Position numbers and translations under genes: made by a program. A stretch of DNA of 64,000 nucleotides from Candidatus Woesearchaeota archaeon (GTDB lineage: Archaea; Nanobdellota; Nanobdellia; Woesearchaeales; JAZDKJ01). Positions 6,918 through 41,920 of this stretch are shown here, in pieces (position 1 is the first letter of the stretch; each line of letters begins with the position of its first letter). Location of the stretch: positions 364,222 through 428,221 of the forward strand of contig JAZDKJ010000006.1 of assembly GCA_043803105.1 (NCBI GenBank), read 5' to 3'. The notes below the pieces were generated by a model that did not search any database, was not told the origin of the DNA, and saw only the letters and a list, made by a program, of their open reading frames with translations.

Positions 6918-7044
6918 TGGGCCGGACGAGATTTTCTTTGTTTTTTTTTCCAAGTTGCATTCGAACTCGCGACCACCTGATTGCTTTGCAGCTTAAAAGT
7001 CAGGTGCTCTATTGCCCTTATACTCCAGGCTGAGCTACCGGCCC
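6918..7044 (-). tRNA. tRNA-Lys (anticodon UUU) with three putative introns: a mini-insert in the D-loop, the canonical 37/38 site, and a site after the T-loop
   Basis: Minus strand reads GGGCCGG-TA-GCTC-AGCCTGG[AGTATAAGGGCAA]TA-GAGC-A-CCTGA-CTTTTA[GCTGCAAAGCAA]A-TCAGG-TGGTC-GCGAG-TTCGAAT[GCAACTTGGAAAAAAAAACAAAGAAAAT]CTCGT-CCGGCCC-A. The acceptor, D, anticodon and T stems all pair once the bracketed segments are removed. Confidence 0.6.
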
Positions 7045-7059
7045 ATCGTGATTGAAAAA

Positions 7060-7225
7060 CGCCCTGGTCGGGACTTCCAACAACAGACATGCCGTATGAC
7101 ATTTTCAGCTGATTTGAACCCGAGTCGAAGCCTTTTTGCGGTAGCAAACAGTAATTCAACCCTCCCTCTGGTTGAAAAGCCACCTCGACAGGGCTTCATG
7201 ATAGGCCAGACTACACTACCAGGGC
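7060..7225 (-). tRNA. tRNA-Asp (anticodon GUC) with two putative introns: the canonical 37/38 site (about 52 nt) and a site after the T-loop (about 39 nt)
   Basis: Minus strand reads GCCCTGG-TA-GTGTAGTCTGGCCTATCAT-G-AAGCC-CTGTCG[52 nt]A-GGCTT-CGAC-TCGGG-TTCAAAT[CAGCTG...GGAAGT]CCCGA-CCAGGGC-G. The D-arm resembles archaeal tRNA-Asp (GTGTAG...CCAATCAT). Confidence 0.6.
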
Positions 7226-7432: not shown

Positions 7433-7559
7433 TCCCCGAGGCCGGAGTCGAACCAGCAACCTTTCGGTAACGGCTGAGTGTTTTTCACATTCTGCACTGA
7501 GTGCAATATCAAAACACTATCCCTACAGCCGAACGCTCTAGCCATTGAGCTACTCGGGG
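7433..7559 (-). tRNA. tRNA-Tyr (anticodon GUA) with a canonical-position intron of about 49 nt
   Basis: Minus strand reads CCCCGAG-TA-GCTC-AATGGCTA-GAGC-G-TTCGG-CTGTAG[GGATAG...CCGTTA]A-CCGAA-AGGTT-GCTGG-TTCGACT-CCGGC-CTCGGGG-A. The C1-G72 pair is typical of archaeal tRNA-Tyr. Confidence 0.65.
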
Positions 7560-7690
7560 AAGCTTTTTTCCTTAGGAAAAAACCTTGGAAAATATGTTTT
7601 TGCCAAGGCAAAAACGCTGCCTTTAAGGCAGCTAAAGTTGCGAGCTGACTTTTCAGCTCAGCTATTGAGCTACTCAGGGATAATTCAATG
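7560..7690 (-). repeat. Structured element directly upstream of tRNA-Tyr: a near-copy of tRNA-Tyr positions 1-25 followed by a conserved hairpin and three further hairpins
   Basis: Minus strand has TCCCTGAGTAGCTCAATAGCTGAGC, matching the tRNA-Tyr 5' region TCCCCGAGTAGCTCAATGGCTAGAGC at 25 of 26 positions. This is followed by GAGCTGA-AAAG-TCAGCTC-GCAAC, then GCTGCC-TTAAA-GGCAGC, CCTTGG...CCAAGG and TTTTTTCCT-AAGGAAAAAA. Confidence 0.45.
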
Positions 7691-29580: not shown

Positions 29581-29637
29581 TCACTGGTCGGCTCTGTACA
29601 ATAATCAAGGAGCAGTACACTTGACCTTACAATCATT

Positions 29638-29710
29638 GGGGCTGCGGGGGAGCTGCGAAGTCAGCTCGCACCTTCGTGGGACATAAAGTCCCCCTGACAT
29701 CACAATCAAT
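29638..29710 (+). repeat. Leader element of tRNA-Pro: an imperfect copy of the tRNA-Pro 5' end followed by a conserved hairpin
   Basis: GGGGCTGCGGGGGAGC matches tRNA-Pro GGGGCTGTGGGGTAGC at 14 of 16 positions. This is followed by GAGCTG-CGAAG-TCAGCTC-GCACC, the same hairpin family as in the tRNA-Tyr leader, and then a GGGAC-ATAAA-GTCCC hairpin. Confidence 0.45.
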
Positions 29711-29827
29711 GGGGCTGTGGGGTAGCTTGGTCTAGCCTATCTGGTTTGGGGCAATGCAAAAAACCAGATGACCCCGGTTCGAAAGTTTTATAAAAGGCTG
29801 ATTAACTCGAAAATCCGGGCAGCCCCA
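29711..29827 (+). tRNA. tRNA-Pro (anticodon UGG) with two putative introns: the canonical 37/38 site (12 nt) and a site after the T-loop (about 30 nt)
   Basis: GGGGCTG-TG-GGGTAGCTTGGTCTAGCCTA-TCTGG-TTTGGG[GCAATGCAAAAA]A-CCAGA-TGAC-CCCGG-TTCGAAA[GTTTTATAAAAGGCTGATTAACTCGAAAAT]CCGGG-CAGCCCC-A. Confidence 0.6.
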
Positions 29828-36889: not shown

Positions 36890-37201
36890 ATGGCGATTTC
36901 TTACAAGCAAAGATGCATGCGGTGCAAAAAGAATATGGTCATGGTGACTTCAAGGACTTTTTTCCCAGTCTGTTACGATTGTGAAAAGAATGATTTGCAT
37001 GGTCTGGTCAAGAACCCTAAGATGAAAAAGCTCTTTAATATTCCAGAATCCTTCTATGTAGAGAATACTTTCCTGCGCTCAATAAAGATCAATTACCTGA
37101 AGTTTGGCAGCCTCTCAGAAAAGCAGATTGCAAGCTTCAAGAAGACTGTGGAAGAGTTAAAGAAAAAACCCGTAAGCCTCATACCCCCCAGACAGGGTTA
37201 G
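36890..37201 (+). CDS. Zinc-ribbon protein, hypothetical (103 aa)
   Basis: CMRCKK...CYDCEK zinc-ribbon pattern. Confidence 0.4.
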   Translation: MAISYKQRCMRCKKNMVMVTSRTFFPVCYDCEKNDLHGLVKNPKMKKLFNIPESFYVENTFLRSIKINYLKFGSLSEKQIASFKKTVEELKKKPVSLIPPRQG

Positions 37202-38942
37202 ATTTTCTCATTATTATGGCTATCTCTTTCAAGACCTCAGTCTCTTCACGGCCAAGAAGCTTCCTGTACTCCTTTAGTTTTCGGAAATCATCCTCAGGCA
37301 CCGAGCTGTAAAGTGTGTCTCCTTCTTTTATCTGTCTTCCAACAGTGAGGTGCTCAAGGCTCACCGCAACCTGCTTTCCCCGCTCAGCTTTCTCAAGGTT
37401 TTCCTGCTCTGCTTGTATGCTTTTTATCCTGCTAATCTCCTTGCCTTGCGCGTTCATTACAGGCATTCCTGTTCTTATTGTCCCTGCCTCCACCTCTACT
37501 CCTACTACTGCAGGATTGTTTTGCCTGAAAACATAGCCTTTCATGAGTTTGAATTTTGCCGGCCTGACCACCTTGTCCAGTTCTCCCAGCTCTTGTTTCT
37601 TTGACATCTCCTGTTTCCATGCCTCAAGGTCTTCCAGCAGTTTATAGATTATGTCGTGGACTATCACCTTCACATGGTCCAGGCACAACCCTGATTCGTC
37701 CTTGACATTGAACCCGAGCACCACTGCCATCAGCGGATCTTTTTCATAGTTGCTTTCCGCTTCCATAAGGTCTTTTCTCGTTATCGGCCCAACCCCTGCC
37801 TTTCTTATCTCGACTCCGCCGTCCTTCAGGAGCTTGACCATAGCCTCCATGCTGCCAAGCGTGTCTGCCTTTACTATTATTCCTTCCTTGTTTGTTTCAA
37901 TTAGTGCCTCGCTTATCTCGCGCATTATTTCTCTGCTGGTTTTCTCCAGGTTCTGCTGGCTTGTTGCCCTGATTGGCATTCCTGCTATCGCTGTCTCAAT
38001 GTCCGGTGCAGCAATCTTTACCCCTGTCGCTGCAACTGCTTTTCTGACCTTTGTGTATTTTGCCTTTTTGTCTCGCATCTCTTCAAGTGGCAATGGTTCA
38101 AGAAGAGCCTTAACTTTTGTTATGATGGGTTTCTCTATGCCCCCAATTACTATGATATCATTTACCTTGAGGATCCCATCGTATATGATCACATCGATTG
38201 TTGTACCAAAACCACGTTCCTCCTTCACCTCGAGGATTGTTCCCTTGGCTGGTCCGCTTGCATCAATTTTTAGGTTGGTTTCAAGGTATCTTTGAGCTAG
38301 GCCTGTTAGCATTACGAGGAGTTCTGGTATGCCCTCTCCTGTTTTTGCAGATACTGGGACGATGATTATTTGTTTTGTAAAGTCCTCTACTCTGTCATAT
38401 CTTTCAGAATTAAGGCCGAGCTTGCTTAATTCTCCCAGTATCTGATAGACTCTCTTGTCAAGCTGCTCTTGCACTGAACTGCTCTGCTTGCTTATGTTCT
38501 CCAGCAAATGCTCTGCCTTATGCTGCCAGCCTGCAATTAAGTCTATCTTGTTCGCAGCGACAATAAATGGTGTCTTGCTATGCTTGAGTATCTCTATTGC
38601 CTCGACTGTCTGTGGCTTGAATCCCTCGTTGACATCGATAACCACAATTGCGATGTCAGCTAGGCTGCCTCCTCTCTTTCTTAGGCTTGTGAATGCAGCA
38701 TGCCCTGGAGTGTCAATGAAAAGAAGGCCTGGTATCGTGAATTTTGTGTTGAGCGCTTCCAGCAATGGGCCGCATATCTTCTTTATGACTTCAAGCGGTA
38801 TTATTGAAGCGCCTATTGCCTGTGTTATCCTTCCCGCTTCTGTCTCAACTATGGCAGTGCCCCTGATCTTGTCTAGCAGGCTTGATTTTCCATGGTCCAC
38901 ATGCCCAAGCACTGTGCATATTGGGCTTCTTATCTCTGGCAT
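37179..38942 (-). CDS. infB: Translation initiation factor aIF5B (IF2 homolog)
   Basis: 587 aa with the GTPase motifs GHVDHGKSSLLD, DTPGH and NKID, followed by the IF2 domains. Confidence 0.9.
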   Translation of the reverse strand: MPEIRSPICTVLGHVDHGKSSLLDKIRGTAIVETEAGRITQAIGASIIPLEVIKKICGPLLEALNTKFTIPGLLFIDTPGHAAFTSLRKRGGSLADIAIVVIDVNEGFKPQTVEAIEILKHSKTPFIVAANKIDLIAGWQHKAEHLLENISKQSSSVQEQLDKRVYQILGELSKLGLNSERYDRVEDFTKQIIIVPVSAKTGEGIPELLVMLTGLAQRYLETNLKIDASGPAKGTILEVKEERGFGTTIDVIIYDGILKVNDIIVIGGIEKPIITKVKALLEPLPLEEMRDKKAKYTKVRKAVAATGVKIAAPDIETAIAGMPIRATSQQNLEKTSREIMREISEALIETNKEGIIVKADTLGSMEAMVKLLKDGGVEIRKAGVGPITRKDLMEAESNYEKDPLMAVVLGFNVKDESGLCLDHVKVIVHDIIYKLLEDLEAWKQEMSKKQELGELDKVVRPAKFKLMKGYVFRQNNPAVVGVEVEAGTIRTGMPVMNAQGKEISRIKSIQAEQENLEKAERGKQVAVSLEHLTVGRQIKEGDTLYSSVPEDDFRKLKEYRKLLGREETEVLKEIAIIMRKSNPVWGV

Positions 38943-39188
38943 ATTCTCTGCATATTTTGGGCTGTATTTAAAGGTTTTCAGGATACAAGGAAAGTTAGGA
39001 TTTCATGTCCTTTTGTAATTTCTTCAGAAGGCAATCCACACCTTGTAATATATTATCTTCTTGAGGTTTTCAATATCGATAAATTTTGCGCCCGGTCAGG
39101 GATTTTCACTTGATGAGATTTGAACTGTCAGAAATTCACTGAATTTCTGAGCATGCTCGGAAACATAGTTTCCGACACCTGGAGACCT

Positions 39189-39250
39189 GTGATGGTCAAT
39201 TGCTTTTCAGGCAACCGCGATACCCGATTACGCTAGCCCGGCCTCGCACA
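39189..39250 (+). repeat. Repeat unit U1 of the tyrS-flanking repeat family
   Basis: GTGATGGTCAATTGCTTTTCAGGCAACCGCGA... parallels U3 at 41121 (GTGATAGTTGCTTCAGGCAACCGAGCGA). The flanking GATTACGC(T/G)AGCCC motif recurs at 39376. Confidence 0.35.
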
Positions 39251-39453
39251 TTTCTAAATTGACCTGAACCTTAATATGTTCAATTGAGAATTTTCCGTAA
39301 GTTCTGCGACAAAACCGAGCAAAATCTTATATACCAGAATGCTTACAAACTTTATGACCTGCGATTTAATTACCTGATTACGCGAGCCCTTTTTATATAG
39401 TATTTTCTGTAGATTTGACCAATGGCTCAAGTAGCCTTGGCCAGAAATAAAAT

Positions 39454-39655
39454 GGGGCTGCTGGGATTTCCATGCTTCTAGGACGGTCTTTTGGCATCAG
39501 CCAAAAGCCTTTTCCCAGGTTTTTGCATATTGCAAAAAGCTGTTTGGACCCAGATTAGGAGGTTTTCCGCTGAAAACCTTAGGTCAAATGCCCCGAACCT
39601 CCAGTGATAGTTTCTCGAAGAGTTTCTCTCTTCTCCAAGTTACACTACAGCCCCA
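39454..39655 (+). repeat. About 200-nt highly structured element with tRNA-Pro-like termini (GGGGCTGC... / ...CACTACAGCCCCA); candidate ncRNA or disrupted tRNA-Pro-derived element
   Basis: Starts GGGGCTGCTGGG, like the tRNA-Pro 5' end, and ends CAGCCCCA, like the tRNA-Pro 3' end. Internal perfect hairpins include TTTTGGC-ATCA-GCCAAAA, TTTTTGCA-TAT-TGCAAAAA and AGGTTTTC-CGCT-GAAAACCT, with an outer CTGGGA...TCCCAG stem. The 3' part carries repeat unit U2 (GTGATAGTT...CCAAGTTACACTACAGCCCCA). Confidence 0.4.
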
Positions 39656-39855
39656 TAGGTTGAACTGGAAAGCCACACTGTTGTATGACCTTCCTATAAC
39701 TGCTAAACAGCAGGGTGTTAAAAAGGTTGCGATGGAACGTAACGATGTGATATATTAGAATTTTATGTGCCTCTTACCCTTCAGCAATGTGCAGATTCTG
39801 CTAATTAAATTTATATATAAAGAACTGTTTTATTGTTGCAATCGCTTGCATCACT

Positions 39856-40989
39856 ATGGATAACAGAGCAAAATTTGAACTTATAACGAGAAATTTAGAA
39901 GAAGTACTAACACCTGCAGATTTAATGAAACTCATTGAAAATGATGAGCCTTTAAAGCATTATATTGGTTTTGAAATAAGTGGTAAGGTGCATCTTGGAA
40001 CTGGACTTATGTGTATGTCCAAAATTAAAGACTTCATGGATGCAGGTGCGGATGTTTCTGTGTTTCTTGCTGACTGGCATAGTTGGATTAATGATAAACT
40101 TGGTGGAGACAGAGAAGTTATCAAAAAAATTGCCGTCGGATATTTCAAAGAAGCGATGAAGGCTAGCCTTCTTTGTCTTGGTGGTAATCCTGAAAAAATA
40201 AGATTTGTACTTGGTACAGAACTTTATCACAATAATGACGATTATTGGGCAACCATGATTGATGTAAGTAAAAATACGACTCTAGGCAGGATGACTCGGA
40301 GCATTACAATCCTTGGAAGAAAAGAAGGGGAGGGAGTTGATTTTGCAAAATTGATCTATCCTGCAATGCAGGTTTCAGATATTTTTGTTCAGAAATTGAA
40401 CATACCTCATGCAGGAATTGATCAAAGGAAAGCGCAAGTTATTGCAAGAGAAGTTGCTTTAAAAATGAAAGTAAGTCAAATTACTGATAAAGAGGGTAAT
40501 AAAATTAAACCCGTTGCCCTGCATCATCATCTGTTACTAGGTCTTGGCAAACCCCCGGTATGGCCTGTTCCTCAAGATAAATTACAGGATTTATGGTCAT
40601 CAATGAAGATGAGCAAGTCCAAGCCGGACACTTGTGTTTTTGTTCACGATAGTCCTGATGAAATTAAAAGAAAGATTGCAAAGGCATTCTGCCCTGAAGG
40701 TGAAACTGTGTTCAATCCAGTACTTGATTGGGCTAAATATTTATTGTTCAGAGAGACGACTGATGAACTTATAGTAAAAAGGCCTGAAAAATTCGGTGGA
40801 ACTGTTATATATACAACTTACGAAAAACTTGAAAAAGATTTTGCAGACAAAAAAGTTCATCCAATGGACCTTAAAGATTCAGTTGCTGAAAGTTTAATTA
40901 AACTACTTGAACCTGCAAGAATCCATTTTGAAAAACCTGAAATCAAAAAGACGTTGGATCAGCTTAACAAGCTCATAACCACAAGGTGA
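39856..40989 (+). CDS. tyrS: Tyrosyl-tRNA synthetase (archaeal type)
   Basis: 377 aa with a HIGH-like region (GKVHLGTG) and a KMSKS motif (KMSKSKP). The overall pattern is archaeal TyrRS. Confidence 0.9.
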   Translation: MDNRAKFELITRNLEEVLTPADLMKLIENDEPLKHYIGFEISGKVHLGTGLMCMSKIKDFMDAGADVSVFLADWHSWINDKLGGDREVIKKIAVGYFKEAMKASLLCLGGNPEKIRFVLGTELYHNNDDYWATMIDVSKNTTLGRMTRSITILGRKEGEGVDFAKLIYPAMQVSDIFVQKLNIPHAGIDQRKAQVIAREVALKMKVSQITDKEGNKIKPVALHHHLLLGLGKPPVWPVPQDKLQDLWSSMKMSKSKPDTCVFVHDSPDEIKRKIAKAFCPEGETVFNPVLDWAKYLLFRETTDELIVKRPEKFGGTVIYTTYEKLEKDFADKKVHPMDLKDSVAESLIKLLEPARIHFEKPEIKKTLDQLNKLITTR

Positions 40990-41120
40990 TTTTATTCCTT
41001 TTTGTATGTTTATTCTAGATAGTTAATATTAGAATACAAAATTTCAGGATTAGCCTAAAATGTTTTATGCTTCTTTTCGAATTCCGGTCGGACGCATTCT
41101 GGTTTCATCCTCAAGCGTAA

Positions 41121-41184
41121 GTGATAGTTGCTTCAGGCAACCGAGCGAACTGGTTGGCGCTGGCCAAGTTACACTACAGCCCCG
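41121..41184 (+). repeat. Repeat unit U3 (GTGATAGTT ... CCAAGTTACACTACAGCCCCG)
   Basis: Shares a 20-nt identical 3' block, CCAAGTTACACTACAGCCCC, with 39636-39654, and shares the 5' GTGATRGT...TTGCTT(TT)CAGGCAACCG module with U1. Confidence 0.4.
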
Positions 41185-41220
41185 TTGATTGTTATTGTTT
41201 CGCGAAGCTCACAAGAAACC

Positions 41221-41331
41221 TGATAGTTTCTTGGGAGTCCCAAAAAACTTCAAGTTTTTTGTGACGAAAGGCGACTGAAAGGAGTGTAAAGGTGCCAGCT
41301 GACTTCTCAGCTGAGTAGCACTACAGCCCCA
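41221..41331 (+). repeat. Repeat unit U4 (TGATAGTTTCT ... hairpin ... GAGTAGCACTACAGCCCCA)
   Basis: Begins TGATAGTTTCT as U2 does. It contains a CAGCTGA-CTTC-TCAGCTG hairpin, related to the tRNA-leader hairpin family, followed by GAGTAGC as in the tRNA-Tyr 5' region. It ends CACTACAGCCCCA. Confidence 0.4.
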
Positions 41332-41374
41332 ATTACTCAAACCAATTCGGTCGATTGCTTAAAAAATTTGTGCT

Positions 41375-41920
41375 TTGCCAAGCTTTTTAAGGGTTTTAGA
41401 TACTCCGTCCTGCATGGAGAGGGCACCACAGCAAAAACCTAGCCGTGAGTTGTTGATAGAAAAATTCCTCCAGGACAACCAGTTTAATCTCGAAGATGTG
41501 ATATCCAAGGACGAGATTTTCCAAAGCGCGAATGACCTTGCTTCAGCTATATACAAGAAGAGACCATCATACATAACCTTCAAGGATTATAATTTAGGTA
41601 TAACAAGCAGGTTTCCACAGACACCAGAATTTGAGGTCATGATGCTTTACCAGGTCCACGAGACTGCTTTGAAGTTCAAGCAGCAAGGATACAACGAACT
41701 TAGCTGGAACCAGCTTAAATCAGCATACCTAAAAGTCCACTTACAATCAAGGCATGACGCTGCTGGACGCCATGCCAGGTACAACTCACATTTTCCAAAA
41801 GCCCCAAAAGAGTTTGTTAGAGGCAAACATCCTGTGCACAGCATGCTGCTTACCTTGGACAGCATGGCTGTAGATATACTCCTCCATTATGCCACTTTGC
41901 GAATATACAAGAAAAGATAG
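41375..41920 (+). CDS. Hypothetical protein (181 aa; start may be the internal MERAPQQ)
   Basis: ORF only. Confidence 0.4.
   Translation: MPSFLRVLDTPSCMERAPQQKPSRELLIEKFLQDNQFNLEDVISKDEIFQSANDLASAIYKKRPSYITFKDYNLGITSRFPQTPEFEVMMLYQVHETALKFKQQGYNELSWNQLKSAYLKVHLQSRHDAAGRHARYNSHFPKAPKEFVRGKHPVHSMLLTLDSMAVDILLHYATLRIYKKR

What the first reader, a model, noticed from the sequence alone, without database searches (positions are those of the whole stretch)
39454..39655. An approximately 200-nt hairpin-dense element with tRNA-Pro-like 5' and 3' termini lies upstream of tyrS
The element begins GGGGCTGC and ends CAGCCCCA, which are the acceptor-stem strands of tRNA-Pro. No standard cloverleaf can be drawn between them. 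The interior is a chain of perfect 7-8 bp hairpins. It may be a tRNA-derived ncRNA or SINE/MITE-like element, or a heavily interrupted tRNA-Pro paralog. It sits in a 900-bp non-coding stretch that is unusual in an otherwise compact genome.
Basis: seen in the sequence. Interest (0 to 1): 0.55.

Follow-up and report, generated by a model that had tools for sequence, protein, structure and literature searches.

The report
Three-intron tRNA-Pro gene, opposite strand
The hairpin-dense 200-nt element is an ordinary proline tRNA gene (anticodon CGG) on the opposite strand, split by three archaeal-type introns, a gene structure already known in archaea that standard tRNA finders miss.

Summary
The sequence features are real: GGGGCTG…CAGCCCC termini, 6-8 bp perfect hairpins, and a fold z-score of -5.5. 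The reading was on the wrong strand. On the minus strand (39654→39453) it is a tRNA-Pro(CGG) gene of a Woesearchaeota (DPANN) archaeon. It has three introns: D-loop (24 nt), canonical 37/38 (28 nt) and T-loop 59/60 (76 nt). Each intron is flanked by a strict or relaxed bulge-helix-bulge (BHB) motif.

In-silico splicing gives a 74-nt cloverleaf that ARAGORN calls tRNA-Pro(cgg). No plus-strand splice variant gives a tRNA.

Forty metagenomic loci share the first exon, and 37 of them could be parsed in full. Nineteen of those are intronless tRNA-Pro genes. The others carry introns at these three positions, plus a 53/54 position in three loci. One independent contig yields a 74/74 identical spliced product from very different introns. 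The splice-motif helix shows compensatory changes.

This is a new member of a known kind (multi-intron archaeal tRNA genes).

Side observations:
- At least three more intron-split tRNA genes in the window were missed by Rfam and ARAGORN.
- A neighbouring tRNA-Phe-like gene has an exon structure I could not resolve.
- Degenerate tRNA 5' fragments followed by a shared 17-nt motif lie upstream of several tRNA genes.
- The T-loop has an unusual C at position 55.

The parts
39453..39654 (-). Whole tRNA-Pro(CGG) gene, 202 nt. G1 is at 39654 and discriminator A73 at 39453. No CCA is encoded.
   Evidence: In-silico splicing gives a 74-nt product that ARAGORN at default settings calls tRNA-Pro(cgg). 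The product is 74/74 identical to the spliced L088 product and 73/74 to L092/L123.
39635..39654 (-). Exon 1 (positions 1-19): GGGGCUG UA GUGU AACUUGG.
   Evidence: The exact 20-mer is found in 40 metagenome loci, all at the start of tRNA-Pro genes or fragments. It is invariant in alignment A2.
39611..39634 (-). D-loop intron, 24 nt (AGAAGAGAGAAACUCUUCGAGAAA), between G19 and C20. Relaxed BHB: central helix ACUU/GAGA with 3 of 4 pairs, bulges GG|A and AA|C, inner hairpin of 6 bp.
   Evidence: BHB table. Eight genes, including the window's, carry an intron at exactly this point, all with ...CUUGG|A...AA|(C/U)UAUCA junctions. Intronless relatives read CUUGGCUAUCAC, exactly the spliced product.
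39592..39610 (-). Exon 2 (positions 20-37): CUA UCAC U GGAGG UUCGGG.
   Evidence: Invariant against L088 and L123 in A2. ARAGORN cloverleaf.
39593..39595 (-). Anticodon CGG (positions 34-36), preceded by U33 and followed by G37.
   Evidence: ARAGORN call. The same UUCGGG(A/G) loop is present in 21 of the 37 fully parsed related loci; the others carry UGG or GGG.
39564..39591 (-). Anticodon-loop intron, 28 nt, at the canonical 37/38 position. Strict H/B geometry: central helix UUCG/CGGA 4 of 4 pairs, bulges GG|G and AA|A, outer helix is the 5-bp anticodon stem.
   Evidence: L088 has a homologous 22-nt intron at the same site. L123 and L098 lack it and read UUCGGGA/G straight through.
39543..39563 (-). 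Exon 3 (positions 38-59): A CCUCC UAAU CUGGG UCCAAA.
   Evidence: A2. ARAGORN cloverleaf.
39467..39542 (-). T-loop intron, 76 nt, at 59/60. It contains two perfect 8-bp hairpins. BHB: central helix UCCA/UGGA 4 of 4 pairs, bulges AA|C and AA|U, outer helix is the 5-bp T-stem.
   Evidence: In 15 genes with 59/60 introns, 98.5% of helix cells are paired and two central-helix pairs show compensatory changes.
39453..39466 (-). Exon 4 (positions 60-73): U CCCAG CAGCCCC A.
   Evidence: A2. ARAGORN.
39445..39452 (-). UUUUAUUU run immediately after A73, a likely archaeal oligo-T terminator (inference).
   Evidence: Sequence. Many homologs also have T-rich trailers.
39655..39750 (-). Conserved upstream region of about 95 nt: a TATA-like UUUUUAA box (39718-39724, about -70 to -64) and a 10-bp leader hairpin (39668-39693). 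Likely promoter plus 5' leader (inference).
   Evidence: Near-identical blocks in the ortholog L123/L092. The hairpin is kept with two C-to-U changes that give G.U pairs on the minus-strand RNA only.

Best explanation
The element is a protein-spliced, three-intron tRNA-Pro(CGG) gene on the minus strand (39654 to 39453) of a Woesearchaeota (DPANN) archaeon.

Shown: the exon and intron boundaries, the cloverleaf of the spliced product, the splice motifs and their conservation.

Inferred mechanism, from established knowledge of archaeal tRNA splicing (BHB recognised by the splicing endonuclease EndA, ligation by RtcB; PMC5829648, PMC4090602):
- The gene is transcribed from a TATA-like box about 70 nt upstream, with a hairpin-containing leader, and ends at a U-run.
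- In the precursor, each intron pairs with the adjacent exon to form a bulge-helix-bulge motif: two 3-nt bulges separated by a 4-bp helix.
- EndA cuts after the second nucleotide of each bulge and an RtcB-type ligase joins the four exons.
- End trimming and CCA addition give a 74-nt tRNA (77 nt with CCA) that reads CCG codons.

For: (1) All combinations of BHB-like excisions of 39440-39670 were spliced in silico and given to ARAGORN. The plus strand gave 0 tRNAs from 1453 variants. The minus strand gave tRNA-Pro(cgg) when the D, anticodon and T introns were removed. The chosen product gives a clean cloverleaf at default threshold.

(2) The product carries U8, A14, G18-G19, A21, U33, G37, G53, C56, A58, C61 and A73 (sequence).

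(3) A metagenome scan with exon 1 returned 40 loci, of which 37 could be parsed in full. Nineteen of those are intronless tRNA-Pro genes whose sequence is collinear with the spliced product. The rest carry introns at the same D-loop, 37/38 and 59/60 sites, or at 53/54 in three loci.

(4) L088, an independent contig, has all three introns with different lengths (49, 22 and 80 nt) and largely different sequence, yet its spliced product is 74/74 identical. L123/L092 is 73/74 identical.

(5) BHB geometry. The anticodon and T introns have a 4 of 4 central helix, 3-nt bulges and 5-bp outer helices. The D intron has 3 of 4, as in six of the seven other D-loop introns.

(6) Covariation in the 59/60 motif. 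U55-A changes to C55-G in the window and in L088. A57-U changes to G57-C in three genes. Overall 98.5% of cells are paired, and 0 of 500 shuffles reach the observed covariation score.

(7) Acceptor covariation in L124: GGGGCUA pairs with UAGCCCC.

(8) Synteny. A tRNA-Pro(CGG) gene lies upstream of aIF2, in the same orientation, in L123 and L124. The upstream leader/promoter block is shared with L123.

(9) Three other tRNA genes in the window have the same architecture.
Against: There is no RNA evidence here for transcription or splicing.

The EndA and RtcB genes of this genome were not looked for.

The mature T-loop would be UCCAAAU. C55 replaces the almost universal U55 (own knowledge), which could mean reduced function.

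The D-loop motif is relaxed (A.A in the 4-bp helix), so it needs a broad-specificity endonuclease.

The inner helix of the T-loop motif starts with an A.A mismatch.

Rfam and ARAGORN do not detect the unspliced gene. That is expected for three introns.
Confidence: 0.92

Rival explanations
1. It is a decaying or non-functional relic of a tRNA-Pro(CGG) gene. It may still be transcribed, but it is no longer needed, because tRNA-Pro(UGG) at 29711-29827 can read CCG by wobble.
For: C55 in the T-loop is the only such case among the six window tRNAs examined. A truncated tRNA-Pro-like copy at 41183 shows that tRNA-Pro pseudogenes exist in this locus. The D-loop motif is relaxed.
Against: All four stems are intact. 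The exons are 74/74 identical to those of L088 although the introns have diverged strongly. The C55 change is matched by a compensating G in the intron strand of the splice helix in both genomes. The leader/promoter block is conserved with L123. These are signs of purifying selection on both the tRNA and its splicing.
Confidence: 0.06
2. It is a plus-strand tRNA-derived non-coding RNA or a SINE/MITE-like repeat.
For: The termini look like tRNA-Pro acceptor strands on the plus strand too. The fold is strong on the plus strand.
Against: Plus-strand position 8 is C, and no D-arm or T-arm can be drawn. None of 1453 plus-strand splice variants is tRNA-like. The introns and the whole element are single-copy in the window and in the related loci. 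G.U pairs in the leader hairpin and in the splice helices exist only on the minus-strand RNA. All homologs are tRNA-Pro genes.
Confidence: 0.01
3. It is a tRNA gene, but one or more introns also carry a second function, for example a stable circular intron RNA or a guide RNA as in some archaeal tRNA introns, or they act as a barrier to integrating elements.
For: The 76-nt T-loop intron has two perfect 8-bp hairpins, and L088 has analogous A/U-rich perfect hairpins. Related loci show partial tRNA-Pro copies next to intact genes, as expected for integration sites.
Against: Apart from the splice-motif nucleotides, intron sequence is conserved only among the closest relatives: the anticodon intron and stretches of the T-loop intron align with L088, and nothing aligns with more distant loci. 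No C/D or H/ACA boxes were seen, and Rfam finds nothing.
Confidence: 0.1

Closest known systems
Multi-intron tRNA genes of Thermoproteales and other Crenarchaeota (found with SPLITS/SPLITSX; Sugahara 2006-2008, as cited in PMC4033280 and PMC4090602)
   Same: Up to three protein-spliced introns per tRNA gene. The non-canonical positions include 20/21 and 59/60 alongside the canonical 37/38. Strict and relaxed BHB motifs lie at each junction. The genes are invisible to standard tRNA finders.
   Different: The host is a mesophilic, roughly 44% GC DPANN archaeon (Woesearchaeota), not a hyperthermophilic crenarchaeon. The introns are A/U-rich with perfect hairpins. The D-loop splice point is G19|C20 by my numbering, close to the listed 20/21.
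Disrupted tRNA genes of DPANN archaea (ARMAN-1/2, Nanoarchaeum; survey including Woesearchaeota RBG_13_36_6 in Kaneta et al. 2018, PMC5829648)
   Same: Same superphylum. That paper reports increased tRNA gene disruption in DPANN lineages whose EndA carries the L3 loop. It also says that incomplete predicted tRNA sets point to unidentified disrupted genes. This window is an example: only one of at least five intact tRNA genes reached Rfam's threshold.
   Different: I did not determine the EndA type of this genome. This particular gene and its family-wide pattern of intron presence and absence are not described in the papers I could read.
Split and permuted tRNA genes (Nanoarchaeum equitans, Caldivirga, Thermofilum, Cyanidioschyzon)
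   Same: They use the same BHB, EndA and ligase machinery.
   Different: Here all four exons are collinear and in normal order on one strand within 202 nt. Neither trans-splicing nor circular permutation is needed.

Membership tests
Archaeal BHB-intron-containing (multi-intron) tRNA gene | Removing the proposed introns yields a canonical cloverleaf with the conserved tRNA nucleotides and a sensible anticodon. | tested here: met
   ARAGORN at default settings calls the 74-nt product tRNA-Pro(cgg). U8, A14, G18G19, U33, G37, G53, C56, A58, C61 and A73 are present. The single exception is C55.
Archaeal BHB-intron-containing (multi-intron) tRNA gene | Each exon-intron boundary lies in a bulge-helix-bulge motif (two 3-nt bulges, 4-bp helix) or a recognised relaxed form. 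| tested here: met
   The 37/38 and 59/60 introns have a 4 of 4 central helix, 3-nt bulges and a 5-bp outer helix. The D-loop intron has 3 of 4 (relaxed), a 3-bp outer helix and a 6-bp inner helix. Motif definition from PMC5829648.
Archaeal BHB-intron-containing (multi-intron) tRNA gene | Exons are conserved and introns variable or absent in homologous genes, with introns at the same positions. | tested here: met
   38 genes were parsed (37 loci plus the window). 19 are intronless and the others have introns at D-loop, 37/38 and 59/60, or 53/54 in three loci. L088's spliced product is 74/74 identical with different introns.
Archaeal BHB-intron-containing (multi-intron) tRNA gene | Compensatory changes keep the splice-motif helices. 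| tested here: met
   The count of structure pairs on 15 59/60 motifs gave 98.5% paired cells, two-sided changes in 2 of 4 central-helix pairs and 4 of 5 T-stem pairs, and 0 of 500 shuffles reaching the covariation score.
Archaeal BHB-intron-containing (multi-intron) tRNA gene | The genome encodes a splicing endonuclease (EndA) able to cut relaxed motifs, and an RtcB-type ligase. | not tested
   The window's proteins were not scanned for EndA or RtcB. The rest of the genome is not available here.
Archaeal BHB-intron-containing (multi-intron) tRNA gene | The precursor is transcribed and the spliced tRNA exists in the cell. | not testable with these tools
   No transcriptome data. Only indirect signs: a conserved TATA-like box and leader, and a U-run terminator.
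tRNA-derived SINE/MITE-like repeat | Many dispersed copies with shared internal sequence, and terminal repeats or target-site duplications. | tested here: not met
   The introns and the whole element occur once in the window and are absent from about 0.8 Mb of related loci, apart from the orthologous genes. Only the exon-1 20-mer recurs, in another tRNA-Pro-like gene at 41183.
Known structured RNA families (SRP RNA, RNase P RNA and others in Rfam 15) | A covariance-model match. | tested here: not met
   No match at gathering threshold. No credible match at E up to 10 within 39454-39655.

The most novel reading that the evidence does not exclude
The tRNA loci of this Woesearchaeota lineage may be shaped by a DNA-level mobile element that targets tRNA genes. 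A 17-nt motif (AAGTCAGCT[C/G]GCA[C/A]CTT, preceded by a GCUGA-RAAG-UCAGC hairpin) lies directly after degenerate copies of tRNA 5' ends, upstream of tRNA-Tyr, tRNA-Pro(UGG) and a truncated tRNA-Pro-like gene in this window. The same module lies inside the 59/60 intron of the orthologous tRNA-Pro(CGG) in a related genome (L123). If one element can be both an integration scar and a spliceable intron, that would be direct sequence evidence for how archaeal tRNA introns are gained. The neighbouring tRNA-Phe-like gene, which seems to need more than three excisions, some without a recognisable BHB, could be an extreme product of the same process.
Probability: 0.15. Interest if true: 0.6.

Novelty: new member of a known kind. 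Interest (0 to 1): 0.3.

Why it matters
In itself this is an annotation correction: a missed tRNA-Pro(CGG) gene, not a new RNA class.

It also illustrates how badly standard tools under-call tRNA genes in DPANN genomes. Rfam at its gathering threshold found one tRNA gene in this window and ARAGORN found none. At least five intact genes are present, plus a tRNA-Phe-like gene whose exon structure is unresolved.

The set of 37 parsed related tRNA-Pro genes, which share an identical first exon and range from no introns to three, is a clean natural series for studying intron gain and loss. It could also be used to study co-evolution of exon nucleotides with the splice motif, for example C55 paired with a compensating intron G.

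Tried and rejected
(1) A plus-strand cloverleaf (anticodon-like UUUGGAC, T-loop-like GGUCAAAU). No consistent D-arm or T-arm, C at position 8, and 0 of 1453 splice variants recognised.

(2) A strict-BHB 16-nt D-loop intron (39631-39616). It leaves an 18-nt D-loop, ARAGORN rejects or mis-calls the product, and intronless homologs show the D-loop is AACUUGGCUA. Replaced by the 24-nt relaxed-BHB intron.

(3) ARAGORN with intron mode and Rfam at permissive E-value on the unspliced DNA. Nothing found at the element.

(4) Synteny through TyrRS in genome contigs. The closest relative (96% identical TyrRS, L001) has a different upstream gene and no element.

(5) An exact look-up of the aIF2 protein failed. 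Homologs found gave L121-L125. Of these, L122/L123 and L124/L125 carry the orthologous tRNA-Pro, but none carries a tRNA-Phe.

(6) For the neighbouring tRNA-Phe-like gene I tried several models: a single 78-nt intron (poor T-arm and acceptor), split or permuted arrangements (no partner strands in the window), an upstream exon GCUCGGU, a long variable arm, and a 52/53 insertion. All give cloverleaves, so none could be chosen.

(7) Rfam on the truncated tRNA-Pro-like copy and the motif element at 40990-41420. No match.

Full report
**1. What is in the sequence**

Window 39454-39655 begins GGGGCTGC and ends CAGCCCCA. It contains four perfect hairpins of 6-8 bp. It folds far better than shuffled copies: -78 kcal/mol, z = -5.47, 0 of 200 shuffles as stable.

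It lies in the 913-bp gap between an aIF2/IF5B gene (37179-38942, minus strand) and tyrS (39856-40989, plus strand). Rfam at gathering threshold finds nothing here. In the whole window it finds only a tRNA-Tyr with a 57-nt intron at 7433-7559. A permissive Rfam search finds nothing credible inside the element. ARAGORN finds no tRNA in the entire window.

The organism is a DPANN archaeon. The TyrRS is 96% identical to that of a Candidatus Woesearchaeota MAG. The aIF2 is 100% identical to a Woesearchaeota MAG protein on a 543-kb contig.

**2. The strand**

GGGGCTG and CAGCCCC are complementary, so the termini look the same on both strands. On the plus strand position 8 is C, and no D-arm or T-arm can be drawn.

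The reverse complement reads GGGGCUG UA GUGU AACUUGG..., a normal tRNA 5' end with U8, A14 and G18-G19. It contains GGAGG UUCGGG ... A CCUCC, an anticodon arm with U33, anticodon CGG and G37. It ends ...CCCAG CAGCCCC A followed by UUUUAUUU.

As an unbiased test I enumerated every combination of up to four BHB-like excisions of 39440-39670 on each strand and passed all spliced variants to ARAGORN. The plus strand gave 0 tRNAs from 1453 variants. The minus strand gave tRNA-Pro(cgg) when the D-loop, anticodon-loop and T-loop segments were removed.

**3. Gene structure (minus strand, window coordinates)**

| Part | Coordinates | Length |
|---|---|---|
| Exon 1 | 39654-39635 | 20 nt |
| D-loop intron | 39634-39611 | 24 nt |
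| Exon 2 | 39610-39592 | 19 nt |
| Anticodon-loop intron (37/38) | 39591-39564 | 28 nt |
| Exon 3 | 39563-39543 | 21 nt |
| T-loop intron (59/60) | 39542-39467 | 76 nt |
| Exon 4 | 39466-39453 | 14 nt |

The 74-nt product is GGGGCUGUAGUGUAACUUGGCUAUCACUGGAGGUUCGGGACCUCCUAAUCUGGGUCCAAAUCCCAGCAGCCCCA. ARAGORN at its default threshold calls it tRNA-Pro(cgg) with a clean cloverleaf.

My first guess for the D-loop intron was a strict 16-nt BHB. It left an 18-nt D-loop and was rejected. The 24-nt relaxed-BHB solution is the one that homologs support (section 4).

**4. Homologs**

A metagenome scan with the 20-nt exon 1 returned 40 loci. In every case the match starts a tRNA-Pro gene or gene fragment. 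I could parse 37 of them in full, plus the window gene, giving 38 genes:

| Intron content | Genes |
|---|---|
| None | 19 |
| 37/38 + 59/60 | 8 |
| D-loop + 37/38 + 59/60 (window, L088, L084, L113) | 4 |
| D-loop only | 2 |
| 53/54 only | 2 |
| D-loop + 53/54 | 1 |
| D-loop + 59/60 (L092, same gene as L123) | 1 |
| 37/38 only | 1 |

- Intronless relatives such as L098 read ...AACUUGGCUAUCAC..., exactly the junction my D-loop splice produces.
- L088 is an independent contig whose three introns are 49, 22 and 80 nt, with largely different sequence. Its spliced product is 74/74 identical to the window's.
- L092/L123 is 73/74 identical and L098 is 65/74 identical.
- Alignment A2 shows the exons as invariant blocks and the introns as indel-rich blocks.
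- In L123 (aIF2 72% identical) and L124 (69%) a tRNA-Pro(CGG) gene with D-loop and 59/60 introns lies upstream of aIF2 in the same orientation. The locus is therefore orthologous.
- L124 has a compensated acceptor pair: GGGGCUA pairs with UAGCCCC.

**5. Splice motifs**

The archaeal splicing endonuclease recognises two 3-nt bulges separated by a 4-bp helix at the exon-intron boundaries. Relaxed forms are cut by broad-specificity enzymes (PMC5829648).

I checked the geometry against the homolog-defined junctions. Exon 1 ends with the 4-nt helix strand plus two bulge nucleotides, and the intron ends the same way.

| Intron | Central helix | Bulges | Outer helix |
|---|---|---|---|
| 37/38 | UUCG/CGGA, 4 of 4 | GG\|G and AA\|A | 5-bp anticodon stem |
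| 59/60 | UCCA/UGGA, 4 of 4 | AA\|C and AA\|U | 5-bp T-stem |
| D-loop | ACUU/GAGA, 3 of 4 | GG\|A and AA\|C | 3 bp (inner helix 6 bp) |

 Six of the seven other D-loop introns also have 3 of 4 pairs; one (L086) has 4 of 4.

For 15 genes with a 59/60 intron (11 related loci and four from this window), 98.5% of helix cells are paired. Two of the four central-helix pairs show two-sided changes. U55-A becomes C55-G in the window and L088. A57-U becomes G57-C in three genes. None of 500 shuffles reaches the observed covariation score, and sliding the partner by one column drops pairing to about 61%.

The positions 20/21, 37/38 and 59/60, and a maximum of three introns per gene, are already described for Crenarchaeota (PMC4090602, PMC4033280).

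**6. Expression signals (inference)**

About 95 nt upstream of the gene are conserved with L123/L092. This block includes a UUUUUAA box at about -70 and a 10-bp hairpin. The hairpin is kept through two C-to-U changes that give G.U pairs only on the minus-strand RNA. A U-run follows A73. I read this as promoter, structured 5' leader and terminator. None of it is tested.

**7. Verdict on the finding**

The element is a tRNA-Pro(CGG) gene with three protein-spliced introns. This is a known kind of gene in a clade where such genes are expected but poorly annotated. Kaneta et al. 2018 (PMC5829648) note increased tRNA disruption and incomplete predicted tRNA sets in DPANN.

It is not a repeat: the introns are single-copy. 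The only atypical feature of the mature tRNA is C55. It is shared with L088 and compensated in the splice helix, so it is a real lineage trait and not a sequencing error.

**8. Things seen on the way**

(a) The same architecture occurs elsewhere in the window. All three products below are recognised by ARAGORN only after in-silico splicing.
- tRNA-Pro(UGG), 29711-29827 (+), with introns at 37/38 and 59/60.
- tRNA-Asp(GUC), 7225-7060 (-), with two introns.
- tRNA-Lys(UUU), 7044-6918 (-), with three introns at the same three positions.

(b) Between tRNA-Pro and aIF2 lies a tRNA-Phe(GAA)-like gene.
- The D-arm and anticodon arm are good (39242-39196; Rfam 22 bits).
- It has a canonical 59/60 motif (intron 39118-39103).
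- The adjacent 5' acceptor strand GCCGGGC mismatches the 3' strand ACCGGGC at two positions.
- A perfect partner, GCUCGGU, lies 70 nt upstream (39320-39314).
- The T-stem 5' strand needs a further insertion without a recognisable BHB.
- The discriminator would be G.
- Several models give cloverleaves and I could not choose among them.

(c) A truncated tRNA-Pro-like copy starts at 41183 (-). It has a D-loop intron and a GAG anticodon, and no matching 3' end before the tyrS stop codon. Its D-loop intron resembles the tRNA-Phe anticodon-arm region: local alignment score 30 against a maximum of 24 in 500 shuffles.

(d) Degenerate copies of tRNA 5' ends, followed by a shared motif AAGTCAGCTSGCAMCTT, lie upstream of tRNA-Tyr (7685-7635), tRNA-Pro(UGG) (29637-29674) and the truncated copy (41331-41289). 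The same module sits inside the 59/60 intron of L123's tRNA-Pro.

(e) Several related loci carry extra tRNA-Pro 3' fragments downstream of the intact gene (L081, L089, L112, L116). L123 carries a 5' fragment 800 nt upstream with an ORF in between. These look like integration scars.

These observations support, but do not prove, a picture in which tRNA genes of this lineage are frequent targets of insertion and recombination.

Noticed in passing
window 39089-39389 (minus strand): A tRNA-Phe(GAA)-like gene between tRNA-Pro and aIF2. It has a good D-arm and anticodon arm (39242-39196) and a canonical 59/60 BHB intron (39118-39103). The adjacent 5' acceptor strand GCCGGGC mismatches the 3' strand ACCGGGC at two positions. 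A perfect partner GCUCGGU lies at 39320-39314. The T-stem 5' strand (CAGG..G) needs another insertion with no recognisable BHB, the discriminator would be G, and a degenerate copy of the 5' part lies at 39389-39361. It could be a gene with more than three interruptions, or a mosaic pseudogene.
   Followed up: partly
window 29711-29827 (+), 7060-7225 (-), 6918-7044 (-): Three more intron-split tRNA genes missed by Rfam (gathering threshold) and ARAGORN: tRNA-Pro(UGG) with 37/38 and 59/60 introns, tRNA-Asp(GUC) with two introns, and tRNA-Lys(UUU) with introns at the same three positions as the finding. ARAGORN recognises all three after in-silico splicing.
   Followed up: yes
window about 41040-41183 (minus strand): An exact second copy of the tRNA-Pro exon-1 20-mer starts a truncated tRNA-Pro-like gene. 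It has a 36-nt D-loop intron, anticodon loop UUGAGG (GAG), and T-stem 5' strand plus UUCGAA. No matching T-stem 3' or acceptor 3' strand occurs before the tyrS stop codon. Probably a pseudogene, so tyrS lies between two tRNA-Pro-related sequences.
   Followed up: partly
window 7635-7685 (-), 29637-29674 (+), 41289-41331 (-); L123:1496-1540: Degenerate copies of the downstream tRNA's 5' end (acceptor strand, with or without the D-arm) are followed by a shared module: hairpin GCUGA-RAAG-UCAGC plus GCA(C/A)CUU. They lie 75-150 nt upstream of tRNA-Tyr, tRNA-Pro(UGG) and the truncated Pro-like gene. The same module is inside the 59/60 intron of the orthologous tRNA-Pro in L092/L122/L123. The 17-nt motif has 3 hits in the window against 0.03 expected.
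   Followed up: partly
window 39547 (minus strand; tRNA position 55); L088: The mature T-loop would be UCCAAAU, with C55 instead of the near-universal U55. L088 shares this. In both genomes it is compensated by a G in the intron strand of the splice helix. The ortholog in L123 has U55.
   Followed up: partly
window 41120-41148 (-) versus 39189-39221 (-): The 3' part of the D-loop intron of the truncated Pro-like gene (UCGCUCGGUUGCCUGAAGCAACUAUCAC) resembles the tRNA-Phe D-stem, anticodon arm and following AUCAC. Local alignment score 30 against a maximum of 24 in 500 shuffles. This hints at exchange between tRNA exons and introns.
   Followed up: partly
L081, L089, L112, L116 (downstream of tRNA-Pro); L123:601-618: Extra partial tRNA-Pro copies lie next to intact genes. 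One to two 3' fragments ending ...CGCAGCCCCA follow the gene in four loci. In L123 an 18-nt 5' fragment lies 800 nt upstream with a 157-aa ORF in between. They look like attachment-site duplications left by integrating elements.
   Followed up: no
L001 versus window 39856-40989: The closest TyrRS (96% identical, Woesearchaeota MAG JBDRIZ010000169) has a different upstream neighbour and no tRNA cluster. In contrast, tRNA-Pro(CGG) upstream of aIF2 is conserved in L123 and L124. The position of tyrS next to the tRNA cluster therefore appears to be recent.
   Followed up: partly
window 7433-7559 (minus strand): The 57-nt intron of tRNA-Tyr(GUA) does not form a perfect BHB by the standard rule. The central helix has a C.U mismatch, or an alternative register gives larger bulges. 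This again suggests a tolerant endonuclease.
   Followed up: no
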